Of a stretch of 33,399 bases of DNA, positions 25,895 to 33,399 are shown in pieces (position 1 is the stretch's first letter; the number at the start of each line of letters is the position of its first letter). The DNA is from a bacterium (GTDB taxonomy: Bacteria > Patescibacteriota > Minisyncoccia > UBA6257 > GWB1-50-10). The notes below the pieces were generated by a model that searched no databases, was not told the DNA's origin, and worked only from the letters and a program-made list of their open reading frames with translations. The position numbers and the translations under genes were made by a program. The stretch covers positions 1 to 33,399 of the forward strand of contig JAJZPU010000003.1 of NCBI GenBank assembly GCA_021811055.1, given 5' to 3'.

Positions 25895-25982
<88 letters not shown>

Positions 25983-26119
25983 AATACCCGTCTCACAAGG
26001 GCGGGCGATCATTTTGCCTTACACAAAATGACGTATGACACGTATGTAATATAAGCGAGAAATAATAACAATTCAATCTTGTAAAAACACATTTTTTAAA
26101 ATCCACCACCATACATTGT

Positions 26120-26144
26120 CATCCACCCATTGGCGCGAATGGGT
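26120..26144. repeat. 25-bp palindromic repeat, copy 1
   Basis: CATCCACCCATTGGCGCGAATGGGT, identical to 26545-26569. Confidence 0.9.
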
Positions 26145-26210
26145 TGGTGGGTGTGATAGAATGGAAGAAAGGGCGAAAGAGGGGGTGGGGGAATAAAAAA
26201 TAAAAATAGT

Positions 26211-26483
26211 ATGAAAAATATAAAAAGAATTACTCAGATATTTAAAATATTTTCGAATATAAACAGGGTAAAAATTGTACATCTCCTTTCAAAGAAAAGA
26301 ATGATGAATGTAACGGATCTTGCAGAAGCGCTTGAGATTTCATTCACATCGACATCAAAGCATCTCATCATCCTTGAGCGATTTGATGTGGTGAGCTCGA
26401 CAGGGAAGTTGGGGCACGTGTTCTACTCGCTGAACGAAGATATTCCCAACGATGTTCGGGAAGTGATGAATCTTTTTACATAA
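26211..26483 (+). CDS. ArsR/SmtB-family winged-HTH regulator
   Basis: FK.FSN.NRVKI..LL, NVTDLAEALEIS..STSKHL..L, VFYSL; extended -10 TG-A-TAGAAT at 26154-26162. Confidence 0.88.
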   Translation: MKNIKRITQIFKIFSNINRVKIVHLLSKKRMMNVTDLAEALEISFTSTSKHLIILERFDVVSSTGKLGHVFYSLNEDIPNDVREVMNLFT

Positions 26484-26544
26484 GTTCTCATTACTCCCCA
26501 CTCTCCACTTTTTTCTACTTTTCATTGTTCACTGTTCACTCATC

Positions 26545-26569
26545 CATCCACCCATTGGCGCGAATGGGT
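26545..26569. repeat. 25-bp palindromic repeat, copy 2
   Basis: Identical to 26120-26144; here the perfect stem extends to 14 bp (26543-26556 with 26563-26576). Confidence 0.9.
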
Positions 26570-26755
26570 GGATGGAGAGAAGTTTGAGAAATACGAAGAG
26601 TGTGGTGAGTCTGAGAGGCTGGGCGGGGTTATGTTTGTGGGGGGGCACAACGAGAGGCGAGGCGAATCCCTTACCTTCGAGTTTGGGTCAAATTCCCGCA
26701 TACAGTGTATTTGGAACGTGATATAATTAGTTTGTTAGAATATCTCGTGAGAAGT

Positions 26756-27343
26756 ATGGAAATTCCACACGAAACAAAAATTGTTCTGCATGTTTTCATT
26801 GATGCCTCGAATTTATGGCAAGCACAGAAAGCAAAGGGAAAAATGTTGGATTATAAAAAGTTAAAAGAATTTTTAAAATTGAAATTTTCCGCAACAGAAA
26901 TAAAGGTGTTTTATTACACCGCATATCCAAAAGAAGGTACTCGTGAATACAGTCTCGATGGAAAACATAAATTTTTTGTATATTTAAAAAAAGGACTTGG
27001 ATTTGAAGTGCGGAAAAAAGAGTTAAAAAGAATTCCGATTCACAGAGATGGATGCGATGATTCAATCCAAGAAAAAGGGAATATGGATGTCGAATTAACT
27101 ATAGACGCCGTGCATTTTGCAGAAAACTATTGCAGTGCGGTATTTTTCACAGGCGATTCTGATTTTCTCGCTCTTGTTTCTTATCTAAGAAATATCCATA
27201 AAAAGAAAGTTTATGTGTTTTCTTCGAAAAACAATATATCACAGGAATTACGCACCGGCGCAGATCAATATTTTGACATACTCGAGTTGAAAGATGATGT
27301 CTGGGGAAGAGATCTTAAATATCGTTCTGAGAAAAGTTTTTAA
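26756..27343 (+). CDS. NYN/LabA-DUF88 (PIN-like) ribonuclease domain protein
   Basis: VFIDASNL, EKGNMDVELTID, FTGDSDF, S.ELR..AD.YFD; start set at ATG 26756 downstream of TG-A-TATAAT (26719-26727). Confidence 0.9.
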   Translation: MEIPHETKIVLHVFIDASNLWQAQKAKGKMLDYKKLKEFLKLKFSATEIKVFYYTAYPKEGTREYSLDGKHKFFVYLKKGLGFEVRKKELKRIPIHRDGCDDSIQEKGNMDVELTIDAVHFAENYCSAVFFTGDSDFLALVSYLRNIHKKKVYVFSSKNNISQELRTGADQYFDILELKDDVWGRDLKYRSEKSF

Positions 27344-27372
27344 AAAAGCAGCCCTCCGTAAGGAGGGCTGCT
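27342..27372 (-). terminator. Intrinsic terminator oriented for a minus-strand transcript
   Basis: Perfect 11-bp stem AGCAGCCCTCC-GTAA-GGAGGGCTGCT; a T6 tail exists only on the minus strand. Confidence 0.75.
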
Positions 27373-27416
27373 CTTGGATGTAATACCCTTAAGGTCACAA
27401 ACAGAAACCCTAAGAC
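27342..27416 (-). ncRNA. Candidate ~75-nt small RNA convergent with the NYN gene
   Basis: Bounded by a minus-strand promoter (27423-27452) and a minus-strand terminator; no ORF; 5' end approximate. Confidence 0.5.
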
Positions 27417-27422
27417 ATTTGT

Positions 27423-27452
27423 ATCTTACCACATTTTAAATATAAAAGTCAA
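27423..27452 (-). promoter_or_regulatory. Sigma70-type promoter pointing back at the NYN gene
   Basis: Minus strand TTGACT, 18 nt ending in TGG, then TAAGAT (extended -10). Confidence 0.6.
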
Positions 27453-27459
27453 AGTCATC

Positions 27460-27852
27460 CACATCAGCAGATGGAATCGCGAGCTGGCGGCTAGACCGAG
27501 GTGAGCGACGGCGAACCGAGAGTCGGAGGCGAATCCCAATCTCTTTATATCGTAGCGGGTGAGGAGGAATCCCTTACAAATCGCGGAGAGGAGCGAGCAA
27601 ATGTCTTTGCTCGTGTGAGGATTCGAACGCCGGAGCCAGTGCGCATCAGCAGATGTGCACGCGAGGCCGAAGTGTAAAATGAGAATACAACTGCTTGTAT
27701 TCGAATAACGGAGATGGGCAAGCGTTATGCAAATCTTTGCATTGCGAAGTCTAGAGTAGGGGTGGTCAGCCCGAGGAAGTGCGACGGCGAACCGAGAGTC
27801 GGAGCCGAATCCATGACTGAGAATCATTCCGAGTCGAGGGCAAATCCCGCAT
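27460..27852. repeat. GC-rich structured repeat module
   Basis: GCGACGGCGAACCGAGAGTCGGAG(G/C)CGAATCC at 27505-27536 and 27781-27812; CATCAGCAGATG twice; several hairpins. Confidence 0.85.
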
Positions 27853-27941
27853 TTTTATTGGAATATAGACTAATTATCTACAAGGAGGGATAATTAGACG
27901 AAACGTCAGATATCTATATTGTGAACGCAATAAAATAAGCT

Positions 27942-30494
27942 ATGCCAAACCCTAGAGAAGCAAAAGCACGGATAAAAATAAACAAACTCCTCGAAGAATC
28001 GGGATGGCGTTTTGAGGACGACGAAAGAGGTCGGGCCAATATTTTACTTGAGGCGGGAGTTAAATTTAATGAATTGGACGAAAATTTAGAAAACGCTGTG
28101 ACGAGCGACGGACGTCGCGGCGCCATTGATTTTCTTCTTCTTGATAAAGATGGTCGTGCGCTTGTTGTTATAGAAGCAAAAAAAGAATCGATCGATCCAC
28201 TGTCAGCTAAAGAACAAGCGAGAAATTATTCGCGTAATAAAGGTGCACGTTTTGTGATTCTTTCCAATGGTAATATTCACTATTTTTGGGATACAAAGCA
28301 TGGTAATCCTGATACTATCTCGCGTTTTCCAACACAAGATTCAATTACTCAATATGAAAAATATACACCAAATCCTGTAGAGCTTGCTCAAACACGAGTT
28401 GATGAAAATTATGTTGTTTCCACACAGATACCGAATTATGCACAAGATCCATTATTTCAAAACGAATCGACGAGAGTTGAATTCTTAAAAAATAACAAAC
28501 TCAAACAACTTCGCCCATATCAAGTACAAGCAATAAAAGCTTTACAGTCCGCGGCCGAAGGTGGAAATCAGAGGTTTTTATTTGAAATGGCAACTGGAAC
28601 GGGTAAGACTCTCATCTCTGCTGCGGTCATAAAACTATTTCTTAAATCTGGAAATGCACGCCGCGTGCTTTTTCTTGTTGATCGTCTTGAACTTGAAGAT
28701 CAGGCACAAAAAGCTTTTGTGCAGTATCTTGGACATGATTATCGCAGTGTTATTTATAAAGAAAATCGTGATTCTTGGGCAAATGCGAGCATTGTTGTTT
28801 CCACAATTCAAACTTTTCTCGCCGGTGATCGGTATAAAAAGGAATTTTCTCCGACTGACTTTGAACTCGTTATTTCCGATGAAGCTCATCGCTCTATTGG
28901 TGGCAATAGTCGCGCTGTTTTTGAATATTTTGTCGGCTACAAACTTGGACTTACTGCAACGCCCAAAAATTATCTAAGAGGATTTGATGTTGAGGGGTCC
29001 GATAGTCAGAGAGAATATGAGCGCCGACTTTTGATTGATACCTATAAAACATTTGGTTGTGAATCCGGGAATCCGACTTTTTCTTATGACCTCGAAAAAG
29101 GTGCAGAGGAAGGATATCTTATAAAACCAACACTTGTTGATGCTCGTACCAACATTACCACTAAACTTCTCTCGGAAGAGGGTTATGCTGTGCACATACT
29201 CACCGAAAGTGGAGAGACTATTGATGAGACTTTTAATGAACGCCATTACGAGCGCAAAATTTTCAATGAAGAAACAAATATTGCTATGTGTAGGGCGCTG
29301 ATTGATAACGGACTATATGATCCAGTTGCAAAACAACTTGGAGTAAACTTATTTGGAAAAACAATTGTGTTTGCAATATCACAGCGCCACGCCGCCAGAC
29401 TGACCAATATCTTAAATAAGATTGCTTTTGAAAGGTGGCCAGAACAATACAGTGAATCAAACTTCGCGATGCAAATTTCTTCACAAGTTGTAGACGCGCA
29501 ACAAATGACAATTAATTTTTCCAACAACCGTCTTGGCGGACAAACAAATCATCCCGAAGGATATGACACTAGCAAAACTCGCGTTGCTGTAACGGTTGGA
29601 ATGATGACGACTGGTTATGATTGCCAAGATTTGCTCAATATTGCGCTCATGCGTCCTGTTTTCTCACCAACTGATTTTGTGCAGATTAAAGGACGAGGCA
29701 CTAGAAAGTGGCAATTTGAATATAATGATTATCAAAACGAACCGATTAACGCCCCTAAAGAAAAATTCAAGTTTTTTGATTTCTTTGCCACCTGCGAATA
29801 TTTTGAAAATGAATTTGATTATGATGAAAGAATTACACTTCCACCAATTCATGTAACTCCGTCAACTAGCCCCGAAGGGGACGGTCTTGTTGGTGATCCA
29901 CCGCCGGAACCACCGAAAGGTCCAATAGACCTTGCGACCAGTGACGAATTGGCAACGATTTCTGAAACTCCCGAAGGCGTGATTATGCGCATTGACCGTG
30001 AAGGCTTCAAGCGTGCCGTTGAGGAGGATATCCTTGGAAACAACACGCTTAAAAATATGTGGAATAATGGCGACAGAGAGGAAGCAGAGGAGTTCACTAA
30101 AAAATATATCTTTGACAAGCCGAAATATTTTCTCAATCTTGATAAGATAAAAAAGATTTTTGGTGTTGATCGTCGCGTCACCGTCAAGGAAGTTTTGCAA
30201 TATGCTTTTGGCGAGAGGGAAGAATTTGAAATGAAAGATGATCTTTTGGAATCAGAGTGGGAAAAATTTGTAGAAATCAATAATATTGATCAGGATCATT
30301 ATTGGCCAGCGAAAAACTTTTTTAAAGCGTATATTGTAGATGAACAGGTGCGCGATATAATTAAGCGTAATCAGCCAGCAGAGTTCTATCACTGTGCATC
30401 GTTTGATTTTGAAGACTACCAAAAACTCAATGGATATAGAATAACTGTTCCACAATATATTCATGATTATGCATATCAATTAACAAATTTATAA
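27942..30494 (+). CDS. hsdR: Type I restriction enzyme R subunit (EcoAI/EcoEI-like)
   Basis: Nuclease D..L....VIEAKK, LRPYQ, EMATGTGKT, DEAHRS, GLTATP, MMTTGYD, QIKGRGTR. Confidence 0.92.
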   Translation: MPNPREAKARIKINKLLEESGWRFEDDERGRANILLEAGVKFNELDENLENAVTSDGRRGAIDFLLLDKDGRALVVIEAKKESIDPLSAKEQARNYSRNKGARFVILSNGNIHYFWDTKHGNPDTISRFPTQDSITQYEKYTPNPVELAQTRVDENYVVSTQIPNYAQDPLFQNESTRVEFLKNNKLKQLRPYQVQAIKALQSAAEGGNQRFLFEMATGTGKTLISAAVIKLFLKSGNARRVLFLVDRLELEDQAQKAFVQYLGHDYRSVIYKENRDSWANASIVVSTIQTFLAGDRYKKEFSPTDFELVISDEAHRSIGGNSRAVFEYFVGYKLGLTATPKNYLRGFDVEGSDSQREYERRLLIDTYKTFGCESGNPTFSYDLEKGAEEGYLIKPTLVDARTNITTKLLSEEGYAVHILTESGETIDETFNERHYERKIFNEETNIAMCRALIDNGLYDPVAKQLGVNLFGKTIVFAISQRHAARLTNILNKIAFERWPEQYSESNFAMQISSQVVDAQQMTINFSNNRLGGQTNHPEGYDTSKTRVAVTVGMMTTGYDCQDLLNIALMRPVFSPTDFVQIKGRGTRKWQFEYNDYQNEPINAPKEKFKFFDFFATCEYFENEFDYDERITLPPIHVTPSTSPEGDGLVGDPPPEPPKGPIDLATSDELATISETPEGVIMRIDREGFKRAVEEDILGNNTLKNMWNNGDREEAEEFTKKYIFDKPKYFLNLDKIKKIFGVDRRVTVKEVLQYAFGEREEFEMKDDLLESEWEKFVEINNIDQDHYWPAKNFFKAYIVDEQVRDIIKRNQPAEFYHCASFDFEDYQKLNGYRITVPQYIHDYAYQLTNL

Positions 30495-30498
30495 AATT

Positions 30499-32970
30499 AT
30501 GAATACAGACACAAAAAGACACATAGATGCTGCTCGCCAAGTCCTTGTTGGAGTTGTTCCAAATCCAACTTCACAAATTGATCAAATCACTAATGCTTTG
30601 ATTTATAAGTTTATGGATGATATGGATCAATCCGCTATCAAAGCCGGTGGTGAACCCTCATTTTTTATAGGTGACCTTGAACGCTACGCATGGACGCGTC
30701 TCATGGATGCGCGTATAGGCAATCAAGATCGTGTGAATTTATATTCTGAGGCACTTCTCAAATTTTCGGTTGCAAAACAATTACCAGAGCTTTTTCGTGG
30801 AATTTTTAAGTCTGCATTTTTACCCTATCGTAATCCAGAAATACTTGGGTTGTTTTTAAAGGAAATTGATTATTTTGATTATTCACATCCTGAGGAATTG
30901 GGAAATGCGTATGAATATTTACTTTCAGTGATGGGAAGTCAGGGCGATGCAGGACAATTTCGTACTCCGCGACACATTATTGATTTTATGGTTGATACAG
31001 TAAACCCCACTAAGGACGATAAAGTACTTGATCCTGCGTGTGGCACTGGTGGATTTCTAGTCAGTTCGTACAAGCATATTCTTGAGCAACATGATGGCAA
31101 GGATGACCCAAAGAAAAAGGAAAAACCACTCACACCCGACGAACGCAAAAAATTAGTGGCGAATTTTGAGGGCTATGACATTGATCCTACAATGGTGCGT
31201 ATCGCACAGGTGAATATGTATCTACATCAATTTAAAAATCCAAATATATATAACTATGACACCCTTACTATGGAAGAACGATGGAATGATAGGTTTGACG
31301 TTATTTTAGCAAATCCGCCATTCATGAGTCCAAAAGGTGGGGTAAGTACACATAGTAAATTTAGTATTCAGTCTAGTCGTAGCGAAGTTTTGTTTGTTGA
31401 TTACATAATGAATCATCTCAGACCAAGAGGCCGTGCTGGCATCATTGTGCCGGAAGGAATTATTTTTCAATCAGGCACTGCGCATAAGCAACTTCGTAAG
31501 AATTTAGTGAATGATGGACTCTATGCCGTAGTTAGTTTGCCATCTGGCGTATTTGCGCCATATAGCGGAGTGAAGACAAGTATTTTGCTTTTTGATAATG
31601 AAATAGCAAAATTAAGCAAGGAAATTTTGTTTGTAAAAATTAAGAATGATGGCTTTGATCTTGGGGCTACACGGAGGCCGAGTCAATTTAATGATTTACC
31701 CCACGCTAAAGAGGCAATTTTAGAATATCAAAAATGCATTACGGTTGGCGATCAAACAAAAATAAACGGTGTTGTTTTTAAACACAGTCAACTTTTATTT
31801 GCGGTCAGTAAAGAGAAAATAGCAGAAGATGGCGACTACAACCTTTCGGGTGACCGCTATCGTGTAGCGACTGATTACAGCAATGCTAAATGGCCGATGG
31901 TGAAACTTGGTGAAGTTATTCATTTAGATTTTGGCGAAAGAATTACGAAAAACAATAAACAAGGCACAAAATATCCGGTTTATGGTGGAGGTGGCGAAAG
32001 CTTTAGAACGAATGAATATAATCGCGAGAATGAATATGTGATTGCTCGGTTCGCAATGTCTGAGAATTGTGTTCGCTTTGTATCAGGTCCATTTTGGATG
32101 ATGGATTCTGGTGGTACTTTTTCGGTTTTACCTGAATATAAAGATAAATTGAATAAAGACTTTATTGGAAAGATTCTATTAAGTCGTCAAAAAGATATTT
32201 TCATGTGTGCACGTGGCGGAGCACAGAAAAATTTGAATAATGATCATTTTTATGAATTAAAAATCCCTCTCCCGCCTCTCGAAATCCAAAAACAAATCGT
32301 GGCGGAGCTGAACGGCTATGCGGGTATTATCGCTGGCGCAAAACAAATCGCCCAAAACTGGAAACCTAAAATTGATATTGATCCAGAGTGGGAGAAGGTG
32401 AAGTTGGGGGAGGTTGTTGATTTTACTGGTGGCTATGCATTTAAGAGTGGGGAATTAAAAAAAGAAAAATCCAGCGACGCTGACTTACCCGTGATTAAGA
32501 TCGGGAATGTCGGCAGAAATGGAGATGTAGAAATTGAAGATGCACAATATTTTCCAAATAATAAATCACTAGCGAAGTTTCTCGTTAATAAAGACGACAT
32601 TGTTATTGCTATGACTGGTGCGACAGTTGGAAAAGTAGCTGTTTCTAAATCTGATAATTTACTTCTCAATCAGCGTGTCGGTCTCGTAAGACCAGACGAA
32701 CAAAGGCTTTCCAAATATTTTCTTAAATCAGTTTTGTTCTCGAATGATTTTTATGAATATTGTCAGATGACTGCTGGTGGTGGAGCACAAGGCAATATCT
32801 CTCCGAATCAGATAAAAGAATATGAAATCCCTCTCCCGCCTCTCGAAATCCAAGAACAAATCATAGAAAAAATTGAAGCCGAGCGCGCCCTCGTGGAATC
32901 CGCCAAAAAGTTGATTAATATTTACGAACAAAAAACCAAAGAATCTATTGCCAAACTTTGGGAAGAATAA
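30499..32970 (+). CDS. Type I RM N6-adenine methyltransferase fused to a two-TRD specificity subunit (HsdM-HsdS)
   Basis: GQFRTPRHII, DPACGTGGF, ANPPF, then W..VKLGEV and IPLPPLEIQ..I repeats flanking two TRDs in a single ORF. Confidence 0.9.
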   Translation: MNTDTKRHIDAARQVLVGVVPNPTSQIDQITNALIYKFMDDMDQSAIKAGGEPSFFIGDLERYAWTRLMDARIGNQDRVNLYSEALLKFSVAKQLPELFRGIFKSAFLPYRNPEILGLFLKEIDYFDYSHPEELGNAYEYLLSVMGSQGDAGQFRTPRHIIDFMVDTVNPTKDDKVLDPACGTGGFLVSSYKHILEQHDGKDDPKKKEKPLTPDERKKLVANFEGYDIDPTMVRIAQVNMYLHQFKNPNIYNYDTLTMEERWNDRFDVILANPPFMSPKGGVSTHSKFSIQSSRSEVLFVDYIMNHLRPRGRAGIIVPEGIIFQSGTAHKQLRKNLVNDGLYAVVSLPSGVFAPYSGVKTSILLFDNEIAKLSKEILFVKIKNDGFDLGATRRPSQFNDLPHAKEAILEYQKCITVGDQTKINGVVFKHSQLLFAVSKEKIAEDGDYNLSGDRYRVATDYSNAKWPMVKLGEVIHLDFGERITKNNKQGTKYPVYGGGGESFRTNEYNRENEYVIARFAMSENCVRFVSGPFWMMDSGGTFSVLPEYKDKLNKDFIGKILLSRQKDIFMCARGGAQKNLNNDHFYELKIPLPPLEIQKQIVAELNGYAGIIAGAKQIAQNWKPKIDIDPEWEKVKLGEVVDFTGGYAFKSGELKKEKSSDADLPVIKIGNVGRNGDVEIEDAQYFPNNKSLAKFLVNKDDIVIAMTGATVGKVAVSKSDNLLLNQRVGLVRPDEQRLSKYFLKSVLFSNDFYEYCQMTAGGGAQGNISPNQIKEYEIPLPPLEIQEQIIEKIEAERALVESAKKLINIYEQKTKESIAKLWEE
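32261..32862 (+). repeat. 38-bp direct repeats in HsdS conserved regions
   Basis: AAATCCCTCTCCCGCCTCTCGAAATCCAA(A/G)AACAAATC at 32261-32298 and 32825-32862, one mismatch. Confidence 0.9.
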
Positions 32971-32973
32971 CTT

Positions 32974-33399
32974 ATGTGGGATTCTACATATAATAGGTAT
33001 ATAGAGCGTTTACTTAACGATCAATATGAAGCGGCAGAACTTCTTGGACATGAACTGACTAAAGGGGAAATAAGAGAGGAATTTATTCGGGAACAGATTA
33101 ATAACCAATTTGGCGGAACAGTCCTGTGCGTATCTGGCGTTTTATCAATAGAAAAAAAGAAAGAAAGATACAAACAATGTGATCTTGCTTTACTTTCCCA
33201 TAAAACTAGAAGAAGAGAACTCGGACATCAGTATTTGATTAATCCAAAGGATGTTTTGTTAATAGCAGATGTAAAAAGTTCTCTAAAAATGAGAGACATA
33301 AAAGAATGGGATGAAATTGCAAAAAAAATTCACAAAAGAGCAAAAAAGGAAAAATGGGTCATTACTCCACAAATTGGATTAATATCCTATAGATATACG
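32974..33399 (+). CDS. DUF6602-like putative PD-(D/E)XK nuclease (3'-truncated by window edge)
   Basis: Manual translation MWDSTYNRYIERLLNDQYEAAELLGHELTKGEIREEFIR...KQCDLAL...LIADVKSSL..., open to the end; absent from the ORF track because it has no stop. Confidence 0.65.
   Translation, partial: MWDSTYNRYIERLLNDQYEAAELLGHELTKGEIREEFIREQINNQFGGTVLCVSGVLSIEKKKERYKQCDLALLSHKTRRRELGHQYLINPKDVLLIADVKSSLKMRDIKEWDEIAKKIHKRAKKEKWVITPQIGLISYRYT

What the first reader, a model, noticed from the sequence alone, without database searches (positions are those of the whole stretch)
26756..27452. NYN RNase paired with a convergent small RNA: candidate RNA-antitoxin or defence module
Seen: the strong hairpin right after the NYN stop has its T-tract on the opposite strand, and 50 bp further on is a minus-strand promoter (TTGACT-18-TAAGAT with extended TG). 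Together they define a ~75-nt non-coding transcript (about TGTCTTAGGGTTTCTGTTTGTGACCTTAAGGGTATTACATCCAAG plus hairpin plus U6) with two CTTA(A)GGGT motifs, overlapping only the stop codon and 3' UTR. The NYN acidic catalytic motifs are intact. Established: NYN/PIN folds are RNases, and type I and type III toxin-antitoxin systems use RNA antitoxins. Inference: a standalone NYN toxin held in check by an antisense or protein-binding RNA inside a defence island; I know of no described system of this exact form.
Basis: partly seen in the sequence, partly recalled or inferred. Interest (0 to 1): 0.78.

Follow-up and report, generated by a model that had tools for sequence, protein, structure and literature searches.

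The report
NYN RNase with conserved convergent sRNA
A predicted RNA-cutting enzyme gene in a tiny groundwater-type bacterium is always followed by a small, structured RNA gene pointing back at it, and this undescribed pair looks like a toxin kept in check by an RNA antidote.

Summary
At 27342-27416 (minus strand) lies a ~75-nt RNA gene with its own sigma70-type promoter, two hairpins and a U-tract that overlaps the NYN stop codon. The same RNA gene lies right after the NYN stop in 63 of 63 orthologue loci. Both hairpins covary: 98% of cells pair and 14 of 21 pairs show compensatory changes. G·U pairs put the RNA on the strand opposite NYN. The -10 box sits in a fixed register. No other neighbour gene is conserved. 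The dependence is one-sided. No NYN was found without the RNA, but the RNA occurs with a truncated, broken or missing NYN in 7 of 16 genomes and 9 of 38 contigs. That pattern is expected of a toxin and its antidote. A DnaA box just upstream of the -35 is about 20-fold enriched. More distant NYN clades carry unrelated convergent mini-RNAs in the same layout. Nothing matches in Rfam, and four literature searches found no description. Toxicity, neutralisation and even transcription are untested, because no RNA-seq covers the locus. The defence-island setting is not general.

The parts
26756..27343 (+). NYN/LabA-like predicted endoribonuclease gene (195 aa, stop TAA 27341-27343)
   Evidence: Pfam PF01936 E 6.6e-21. 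Invariant D16, D111, D134, D136. AlphaFold model pLDDT 85; best PDB matches are 2qip and the MARF1 NYN domains.
27342..27416 (-). Predicted ~75-nt non-coding RNA, TSS about G27416, 3' end in the U-tract 27342-27347. It overlaps 2 nt of the NYN stop codon.
   Evidence: Covariance model R1 scores 85.9 bits, E 1.5e-18, and this is the only strong copy in the genome. Homologous RNA at 63 of 63 orthologue loci. MFE -38 kcal/mol, z -5.9.
27388..27414 (-). Hairpin P1 (9 bp, variable loop).
   Evidence: 96.9% of cells paired, 6 of 9 pairs with changes on both sides. Its many G.U pairs would be A.C mismatches on the NYN-sense strand, and P1 does not form on that strand.
27376..27387 (-). Conserved single-stranded linker (GGGUAUUACAUCC, running on into AAG). 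This is the most conserved part of the RNA.
   Evidence: Invariant or >=90% conserved columns G38-G40, A45-C50, A52, G53 in 62 sequences.
27344..27375 (-). Hairpin P2, the intrinsic terminator stem. The upper stem CCCUCC/GGAGGG is conserved in sequence and the lower stem covaries. The U-tract follows.
   Evidence: 99% of cells paired, 8 of 12 pairs with changes on both sides. The T-run is on the minus strand only.
27423..27452 (-). Sigma70-type promoter of the RNA: -35 TTGACT (27452-27447), 18-nt spacer with TG, -10 TAAGAT (27428-27423)
   Evidence: In 62 aligned loci the -10 ends 8 nt before the first P1 base in 57. T-14, A-13 and T-9 are present in 58, 58 and 59 of 62. All 62 match >=8 of 12 consensus positions and 55 match >=9.
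27455..27463 (-). DnaA-box-like nonamer (TGTGGATGA on the minus strand, 1 mismatch to TGTGGATAA), 2 nt upstream of the -35
   Evidence: A box with <=1 mismatch lies in the region upstream of the promoter in 18 of 62 loci against 0.83 expected, and in 24 of 44 independent metagenome loci against 0.98 expected. The genome has dnaA with a box cluster beside it.

Best explanation
This is a self-contained, horizontally mobile two-gene module. One gene encodes a LabA-like NYN endoribonuclease, the presumed toxin or effector. The other, transcribed towards it from its own sigma70 promoter, makes a ~75-nt structured RNA that serves as the enzyme's dedicated antidote (an RNA antitoxin). Shown: the RNA gene, its structure, its strand, its promoter register and its obligate linkage to NYN. 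Inferred: the RNA neutralises NYN. I favour, at about 3:2 over pure antisense control, direct binding of the conserved single-stranded linker and P2 upper stem by the NYN protein, which would be type III-like. The linker's primary sequence stays almost invariant while the protein drifts to 54% identity, and no other conserved partner exists. Because nothing terminates NYN transcription before the RNA gene, the NYN mRNA must also carry the RNA's complement, so an antisense contribution is likely as well. In many copies a DnaA box abuts the -35. This suggests that supply of the antidote is tied to the replication initiator.
For: RNA present at 63 of 63 NYN orthologue loci at 54-74% protein identity. 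Structure: 98.1% of 1281 cells paired, 14 of 21 pairs with compensatory change, 0 of 500 shuffles reach the observed values, and slid controls pair at 40-65%; RNAalifold agrees. Strand: 98.2% paired on the strand opposite NYN against 82.0% on the NYN-sense strand, with 218 G.U cells against 8 A.C. Promoter in fixed register. Only NYN is shared among 522 flanking ORFs, which fall into 404 clusters. NYN upstream regions are not conserved. In one sample of 151 genomes of the order, 12 have an NYN orthologue and all 12 have the RNA. Sixteen have the RNA, 4 of them with no orthologue, and 3 more carry a truncated, frameshifted or stop-containing NYN. In an RNA-anchored metagenome sample, 38 loci had enough flank: 29 had full NYN, 6 broken NYN, 3 none. 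Patchy distribution: 1 of 36 same-family genomes has the orthologue, and 1 of 150 genomes from the rest of the phylum does. The module also sits in a Bacteroidota isolate (L024). Catalytic Asp residues are invariant. More distant NYN clades carry unrelated convergent mini-RNA genes in the same layout: 11 of 73 loci against 3 of 719 genes in the own genome, one of the 3 being this NYN.
Against: No experiment and no RNA-seq was available, so transcription, toxicity and neutralisation are all inferred. The one-sided co-occurrence could partly reflect target size: a 90-nt RNA gene decays more slowly than a 585-nt ORF. Under neutral decay I would expect roughly 3 cases of intact NYN with lost RNA against the 16 opposite cases, and 0 were seen. 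That is only a weak test. Genomes in the samples are related and are not independent. The convergent, stop-abutting layout is kept across NYN clades whose RNAs are unrelated. This argues that the arrangement itself matters, which favours a cis-antisense mechanism over protein binding. Many copies sit among housekeeping genes, and the PADLOC hits are weak. LabA-type NYN proteins are not established toxins.
Confidence: 0.5

Rival explanations
1. Type I-like cis-antisense control. The RNA acts only by pairing with the 3' end of the NYN mRNA, which must read through the RNA gene. This triggers RNase III cleavage or transcriptional interference, with no contact to the NYN protein.
For: Convergent layout with the terminator within -29..+20 nt of the NYN stop, kept even in distant NYN clades whose RNAs are unrelated in sequence. 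In 7 orthologue loci P2 lies inside the NYN coding end. There is no T-run after P2 on the + strand. RNase III is encoded in the genome. NYN 5' regions are unconserved, so control cannot sit there.
Against: Antisense complementarity is automatic and places no constraint on primary sequence. Yet the linker and the P2 upper stem are nearly invariant across proteins down to 54% identity. Orphan RNA genes without any NYN orthologue in the genome still score 71-89 bits. The toxin would not be the small hydrophobic peptide typical of type I (recalled).
Confidence: 0.25
2. Not a toxin-antidote pair. The RNA is the enzyme's cofactor, guide or specific substrate. Either they form a ribonucleoprotein, or NYN is a dedicated processing or turnover factor for a regulatory sRNA that has its own DnaA-linked function.
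For: Strict linkage and sequence-level conservation of a single-stranded segment. The RNA persists without NYN in 4 of 16 genomes, as if it had a function of its own. The DnaA box suggests physiological regulation.
Against: No site in the own genome matches the linker's complement with 2 or fewer mismatches, apart from the locus itself. The distribution is patchy and HGT-like, and the context is variable, which is unusual for a housekeeping regulator. NYN decays while the RNA stays, which is the wrong way round if NYN were needed to mature the RNA.
Confidence: 0.17
3. Nothing special: a bidirectional terminator after NYN plus a chance promoter-like site, or a structured 3' UTR of the NYN mRNA.
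For: In the window alone the promoter match is no better than chance (8 found against 8.4 expected). The sense strand also folds well because of P2.
Against: The promoter keeps its register in 57 of 62 loci. P1 and the linker are conserved beyond any terminator. G.U pairs and P1 exist only on the minus strand. The hairpin has no T-run on the + strand.
Confidence: 0.03

Closest known systems
Type III toxin-antitoxin systems (ToxIN, CptIN, TenpIN; recalled, no call)
   Same: An endoribonuclease toxin paired with a small structured RNA that, in the favoured reading, binds and inhibits the protein. Patchy, mobile distribution.
   Different: There the antitoxin is a tandem array of short repeats upstream of the toxin on the same strand, and the toxin has the ToxN fold. 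Here a single-copy RNA is transcribed convergently from its own promoter, and the toxin has an NYN fold.
Type I toxin-antitoxin pairs with convergent, 3'-overlapping antitoxin RNA (B. subtilis txpA/RatA and bsrG/SR4; E. faecalis par RNA I/RNA II; recalled, no call)
   Same: A convergent small RNA with its own promoter ends at or in the 3' end of the toxin gene. The hairpin is shared between the two transcription units.
   Different: Those toxins are small membrane peptides. Here the toxin is a 195-aa enzyme. The overlap with the coding region is 2 nt in this window, and the RNA's primary sequence is conserved beyond what antisense pairing needs.
SymE/SymR and RalR/RalA (nuclease toxins with RNA antitoxins; recalled, no call)
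   Same: A precedent for an enzyme toxin, rather than a peptide, controlled by a small RNA. SymE-type loci are wired to a DNA-status regulator (LexA), much as this RNA promoter often carries a DnaA box.
   Different: The folds are different, the antisense RNA sits at the 5' end or acts in trans with Hfq, and there is no sequence relation.
LabA/NYN family PF01936 (structure 2qip; MARF1 NYN domain)
   Same: Same fold and acidic active-site residues.
   Different: None of these is reported with a dedicated convergent RNA. The housekeeping NYN paralogue of the same genomes (~30% identity) has no such RNA.
CRISPR-associated NYN ribonuclease (bioRxiv 10.1101/2024.04.08.588522; seen as a search listing and the start of its abstract only) and the PADLOC models NYN PDLC01154 and HEC-09
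   Same: An NYN nuclease in a defence setting; weak profile matches (E 6.7e-12 and 2.2e-6).
   Different: No CRISPR or cas genes were found among the ORFs I examined in 25-33.4 kb of the window. The match covers only the NYN domain of a 310-position model.

Membership tests
NYN domain (Pfam PF01936, LabA-like) | Profile match above the curated cut-off | tested here: met
   75.8 bits against a cut-off of 24.2, residues 13-175.
NYN domain (Pfam PF01936, LabA-like) | Conserved acidic active-site residues. That the family uses four Asp is recalled, not from a call. | tested here: met
   D16, D111, D134 and D136 are invariant in 20 homologues.
NYN domain (Pfam PF01936, LabA-like) | PIN-like alpha/beta fold | tested here: met
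   Model pLDDT 85.4. Foldseek: 2qip E 3.3e-11, TM 0.78 normalised to the target; MARF1 NYN E 2e-6.
Type III toxin-antitoxin | Antitoxin is an array of tandem RNA repeats upstream of the toxin on the same strand | tested here: not met
   A single RNA copy, downstream and convergent. No tandem repeats.
Type III toxin-antitoxin | The RNA binds and inhibits the toxin protein, and the toxin processes the RNA | not testable with these tools
   Needs biochemistry or an RNA-protein structure prediction.
Type I toxin-antitoxin | Antitoxin RNA is complementary to the toxin mRNA | tested here: inconclusive
   The overlap with the CDS is 2 nt here and up to about 35 nt in 7 other loci. Full complementarity holds only if the NYN mRNA reads through. 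No + strand terminator is visible, but no transcript data exist.
Type I toxin-antitoxin | Toxin is a small hydrophobic peptide (usual, with exceptions; recalled) | tested here: not met
   A 195-aa soluble NYN enzyme.
Any toxin-antitoxin system | The toxin arrests growth and the antitoxin rescues | not testable with these tools
   Only indirect support: NYN is never found without the RNA, while the RNA is often found without intact NYN.
Any Rfam 15 RNA family | Covariance-model match at the gathering score | tested here: not met
   The only matches at the gathering score in the window are tRNAs. With relaxed thresholds the best overlapping hits are 21-24 bits against cut-offs of 55-60.
Integron gene cassette with attC site (considered for the unconserved upstream region plus a structured element after the stop) | Core sites GTTRRRY/RYYYAAC at the ends of an imperfect palindrome with little internal conservation (recalled) | tested here: not met
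   Read by eye. No such core sites were seen, the internal sequence is highly conserved, and a promoter, purine start and U-tract are in register.

The most novel reading that the evidence does not exclude
A whole class of RNA-antidote modules in Patescibacteria, with occasional transfer to other phyla. Different clades of NYN ribonuclease toxins would each be neutralised by their own cognate convergent mini-RNA. The RNA's promoter is driven by DnaA through a box abutting the -35. When DnaA is inactive or titrated (replication arrest, starvation, or incoming phage or plasmid DNA), the short-lived RNA would run out and the RNase would be unleashed. That would be a toxin-antitoxin type wired to the replication initiator, in organisms where almost no regulatory RNA biology is known.
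Probability: 0.2. Interest if true: 0.9.

Novelty: new variant of a known kind. Interest (0 to 1): 0.74.

Why it matters
If true, this adds a new toxin fold (NYN) and a new, well-supported structured RNA family to the RNA-antitoxin systems. Its architecture fits neither type I nor type III cleanly. It would be one of very few regulatory RNAs defined in Patescibacteria (CPR), whose biology is known almost only from genomes. It would link a ribonuclease switch to DnaA. The RNA family is defined here by a covariance model with 14 covarying pairs, so it can be annotated at once in hundreds of genomes. The copy in the cultivated Niastella vici DJ57 makes the idea directly testable.

Tried and rejected
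Expression data: no RNA holder was listed for 26600-27600. Three metatranscriptome runs of the same study laid nothing on it. This says nothing about expression.

Mobile-element carriers: no orthologue in IMG/VR viral contigs and none in INPHARED phages. Plasmids hold only ~33% identical NYN genes, chiefly in alphaproteobacterial records. Two of those were looked at. In the S. meliloti record the gene sits next to rpoZ and a (p)ppGpp synthetase/hydrolase gene; in the Bradyrhizobium record the neighbours are DUF2939, hypothetical and caspase-family genes. No signature was obvious by eye.

Trans target: no site in the own genome is complementary to the 18-nt linker with 2 or fewer mismatches, apart from the locus itself.

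5' control: the 130 nt upstream of NYN show no conserved element across loci.

Replacement toxins beside orphan RNAs: their neighbours are rpsG, a 2-hydroxyacid dehydrogenase, a LOG-like gene and small ORFs without a family. One locus has an AbiEii gene ending exactly at the RNA terminator. No consistent partner emerged.

Known RNA families: none.

Earlier notes of this scan: nothing by place, by sequence or by words.

Literature: four full-text searches found no paper describing an NYN gene with a dedicated small RNA or a DnaA-box-controlled antitoxin. The terms were 'NYN domain'+antitoxin+'small RNA'; NYN/'structured RNA'/Patescibacteria; 'RNA antitoxin'+NYN; and 'DnaA box'+antitoxin+'antisense RNA'. 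I saw listings and the starts of abstracts only. Subscription journals and supplements are not covered.

Rejected readings: a small ORF on the RNA (no conserved start); an attC site; a leader or attenuator of a minus-strand gene (only NYN antisense lies downstream); a plain bidirectional terminator.

Method slips: my first anchor regex missed L021, L042 and L071. The first two were recovered and L071. The promoter/terminator scan did not list the P2 terminator.

Full report
**Setting.** The window is a whole 33.4-kb contig (C20) of a 751-kb, 62-contig genome with 45.7% G+C. The closest named relatives of its NYN protein are Patescibacteria/CPR bacteria. The finding lies in a low-G+C stretch of 30-40%. 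This stretch holds a tRNA-Ser gene (25895-25982, minus strand), an ArsR-type HTH gene (26211-26483), the NYN gene (26756-27343), a 490-nt G+C-rich spacer, and a type I restriction-modification pair: an HsdR-like gene at 27942-30494 and an HsdM-HsdS fusion at 30499-32970. A DUF6602 gene is cut by the contig end.

- The NYN ORF matches Pfam PF01936 (E 6.6e-21).
- Its stop codon TAA is at 27341-27343.
- A G+C-rich hairpin spans 27344-27375. Six A precede it on the + strand, which gives a U-tract on the minus strand. No T-run follows it on the + strand.
- The consensus scan finds TTGACT-18-TAAGAT with an extended TG on the minus strand at 27452..27423.
- That scan also shows that such a site alone means nothing: 8 sites were found and 8.4 expected in the region.
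- The predicted transcript 27416->27342 is 75 nt. It folds into two hairpins at -38 kcal/mol, z -5.9 against shuffles.
- The NYN-sense strand forms only the terminator stem, at -28.9 kcal/mol.

**The decisive test is conservation.** A pattern scan of one genome per species returned 61 loci that encode orthologues at 54-74% identity. One more came from the relatives search (L002). These loci lie mostly in diverse Patescibacteria, and one is in the isolate Niastella vici DJ57 (Bacteroidota).

Printing the DNA after each stop codon showed the same element in almost all of them. With an anchor motif I located it in 62 of 63 loci, counting the window. The covariance model then found it in the remaining locus, L071 (E 1.7e-14). 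The count is therefore 63 of 63. In 7 loci the terminator hairpin lies inside the end of the NYN coding region, not after it.

**Structure and strand.** The 62 sequences (61 distinct) align over 101 columns (A1). RNAalifold predicts P1, P2 and a 2-bp closure of the linker. For P1 and P2 together:
- 98.1% of 1281 cells form standard pairs.
- 14 of 21 pairs show changes on both sides.
- None of 500 column shuffles reaches any observed measure.
- Sliding the partners by 1-3 columns drops pairing to 40-65%.

The sequences are related, so the shuffle control overstates the significance. The slid control and the many independent pair types (for example AU/CG/GC/UA at columns 68/87) do not depend on that. 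Reading the same pairs on the NYN-sense strand lowers pairing from 98.2% to 82.0%, because 218 cells are G.U against 8 that are A.C. The RNA is therefore made from the strand opposite NYN.

**Promoter.**
- In the RNA orientation, the -10 hexamer ends 8 nt before the first P1 base in 57 of 62 loci.
- T-14, A-13 and T-9 occur in 58, 58 and 59 of 62.
- TTG of the -35 is in register.
- All 62 match at least 8 of 12 consensus positions, and 55 match at least 9.
- The base 7 nt after the -10 is a purine in all 62.

This is a conserved transcription unit, not a chance site.

**Anatomy of the RNA.**
- The 5' end lies at about G27416.
- P1 has 9 bp and a variable loop.
- The linker GGGUAUUACAUCCAAG is the most conserved part, with invariant G39, G40, A45, A47-C49, A52 and G53.
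- In P2 the upper stem CCCUCC/GGAGGG is conserved in sequence, while the lower stem and the loop vary.
- A U-tract follows.

**What travels with it.** Only NYN does. Among 522 ORFs flanking the 63 loci there are 404 clusters. The NYN cluster covers 62 loci, and the next largest cluster covers 5. Three loci dropped out of the gene-order listing because my crude gene caller did not pick the NYN frame.

Pfam scans of the 110 immediate neighbours of 59 loci give restriction-modification families: N6_Mtase 5, Eco57I 5, HSDR_N_2 4, N6_N4_Mtase 3, ResIII 3, Type_ISP_C 2. These families overlap on the same proteins. The scans also give TGT 5, class II tRNA synthetases 3, Mur ligases, MreC and RNA polymerase. 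Restriction-modification genes are thus frequent neighbours, but the module is not confined to defence islands. The 130 nt upstream of NYN are unconserved, and NYN often follows another gene directly.

**One-sided dependence.** The model R1 finds one strong copy in the own genome.

In 151 genomes sampled from the order:
- The RNA is present at E <= 1.1e-13 in 16 genomes. Two further weak hits are a diverged relative and a likely false positive.
- The same 151 genomes hold an NYN orthologue (E <= 1e-25) in 12, and all 12 are among those 16.
- Four genomes (G041, G136, G097, G171) have the RNA but no orthologue anywhere in the genome.
- Of the 12 with an orthologue, G075 keeps only residues 73-191, G105 is frameshifted and G138 has two internal stops.
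- G102 is partly masked.

In 150 genomes from the rest of the phylum, one has both genes and none has either alone.

An independent sample was anchored on the RNA. A degenerate 18-mer scan of metagenome contigs gave 80 loci, of which 46 hold a true RNA by R1. Among these, 38 have enough flank to judge: 29 with full-length NYN, 6 with truncated or interrupted NYN, and 3 with none.

In summary, intact NYN without the RNA was seen 0 times. The RNA without intact NYN was seen in 7 of 16 genomes and 9 of 38 contigs. This is what a toxin and its antidote predict. It is not proof, because a short gene also decays more slowly, and the genomes are related.

**The enzyme.** An alignment of 20 homologues shows D16, D111, D134 and D136 invariant. 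The model has pLDDT 85.4. It matches the LabA-like structure 2qip (E 3.3e-11) and the MARF1 NYN domains. 2qip is also the only hit by sequence. PADLOC gives weak matches to an NYN model and to HEC-09. The orthologue is rare among close relatives, in 1 of 36 genomes of the same family. A ~30% identical paralogue is nearly universal there and has no such RNA.

**Two things found on the way widen the picture.**

First, a DnaA box with one mismatch or none lies just upstream of the -35 in 18 of 62 loci, against 0.83 expected. The maximum in 2000 random draws was 5. Most boxes sit 2-3 nt from the -35 in the same orientation. In the independent metagenome set the figure is 24 of 44 against 0.98 expected. 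The window has TGTGGATGA at 27455-27463. The genome encodes DnaA, with a cluster of such boxes beside the gene.

Second, more distant NYN clades (24-42% identity) carry unrelated convergent mini-genes in the same position: a promoter, a 32-101-nt RNA, and a hairpin with a U-tract that abuts or overlaps the NYN stop. By a strict automatic definition this holds for 11 of 73 loci, 7 of them with a DnaA box. The background is 3 of 719 genes in the own genome, and one of those 3 is this NYN. The arrangement is thus a recurrent property of non-housekeeping NYN genes, and the RNAs appear to have diversified together with the proteins.

**Mechanism.**

*Shown:* the linked pair, and the RNA's strand, structure and promoter.

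*Inferred:* the RNA counteracts NYN. Two routes fit.

- Protein binding (type III-like) is favoured by the near-invariant linker and P2 upper stem across proteins that have drifted to 54% identity. Antisense complementarity is automatic and would not constrain the sequence. No other conserved partner exists, and the genome holds no complementary target.
- Cis-antisense action (type I-like) is favoured by three points: the layout is kept across clades, no + strand terminator lies before the RNA gene, and RNase III is present.

I put the antidote reading as a whole at about 0.75 (0.5 + 0.25), split roughly 3:2 between the two routes. The reading in which the RNA is NYN's cofactor or substrate gets about 0.17. 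The DnaA box suggests that supply of the RNA follows the state of the replication initiator. That is inference only.

**Comparison with known systems.** My knowledge of these systems is recalled and was not tested here. The module works like an RNA-antitoxin system but fails defining features of both established types. Type III needs tandem repeats upstream on the same strand, which this lacks. Type I usually has a small peptide toxin, which this is not. SymE/SymR and RalR/RalA are precedents for nuclease toxins under RNA control. The RNA matches no Rfam 15 family. Four literature searches and the scan's own notes returned no description. The library lacks most subscription journals, and supplements were closed, so a motif listed only in a supplement could have escaped me.

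**Verdict.** This is a real, strongly conserved and apparently undescribed NYN-sRNA module. It is best read as a new variant of RNA-antitoxin systems, with the function still to be shown experimentally.

Noticed in passing
window 27455-27463 (minus strand), and the equivalent place in L021-L081 and L173-L252: DnaA-box nonamer 2-3 nt upstream of the -35 of the RNA promoter. Present in 18 of 62 loci (0.83 expected) and in 24 of 44 independent loci (0.98 expected). Also present beside the unrelated mini-RNA promoters of other NYN clades, in 7 of 11.
   Followed up: yes
L003, L005, L011, L013, L015, L102, L112, L118, L157, L163, L166-L168 (relatives' genomes): Distant NYN clades (24-42% identity) each have their own short convergent RNA gene (32-101 nt) ending at the NYN stop. 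Some pairs of these RNAs (L163/L168, L112/L118) show compensatory changes between them. L013 and L102 were seen by eye only.
   Followed up: partly
window 27362-27382 (+ strand): On the NYN-sense strand the conserved region reads GGAGGG, 10 nt, ATG, then at once a stop: TAA 39, TAG 10, TGA 5, against TTA 5 and 3 unparsed, out of 62. This is a Shine-Dalgarno site plus a start-stop mini-ORF in the 3' UTR. It could be a coincidence of the RNA's UUACAU motif. Unexplained.
   Followed up: partly
window 27456-27941: A G+C-rich (about 50%) non-coding spacer between the RNA promoter and hsdR. It has an internal 32-nt repeat (27505-27536 and 27781-27812). Stretches of it are 89-91% identical to pieces on contigs C17, C58, C25, C31 and C35 of the same genome. 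It looks like a dispersed intergenic repeat family. There is no Rfam match.
   Followed up: no
window 26120-26153 and 26541-26576: Near-identical 31-34-nt palindromic hairpins (CATCCACCCATTGGCGCGAATGGGTGGATGG) flank the ArsR-type HTH gene on both sides. A third copy lies on contig C41.
   Followed up: no
window 25895-33399: Everything from tRNA-Ser to the contig end (ArsR, NYN with its RNA, the type I R-M system, DUF6602) has a lower G+C content than the genome: 30-44% against 45.7%. This may be an island inserted next to the tRNA gene.
   Followed up: no
L089 (G082:C28), L100/L105 and L107/L108 (G143), L094/L106 (G102): Some genomes carry two to four RNA copies. G102 has two RNA genes 204 nt apart. 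G143 has, on each of two contigs, a full module and a second copy with a truncated NYN 1.9 kb away. In G082 an orphan RNA ends exactly at the stop of an AbiEii toxin gene.
   Followed up: partly
L024 (Niastella vici DJ57, NZ_LVYD01000041.1): A cultivated Bacteroidota isolate carries the complete module (NYN 73% identical, RNA and sigma70-type promoter intact). This implies transfer across phyla and offers a tractable host.
   Followed up: partly
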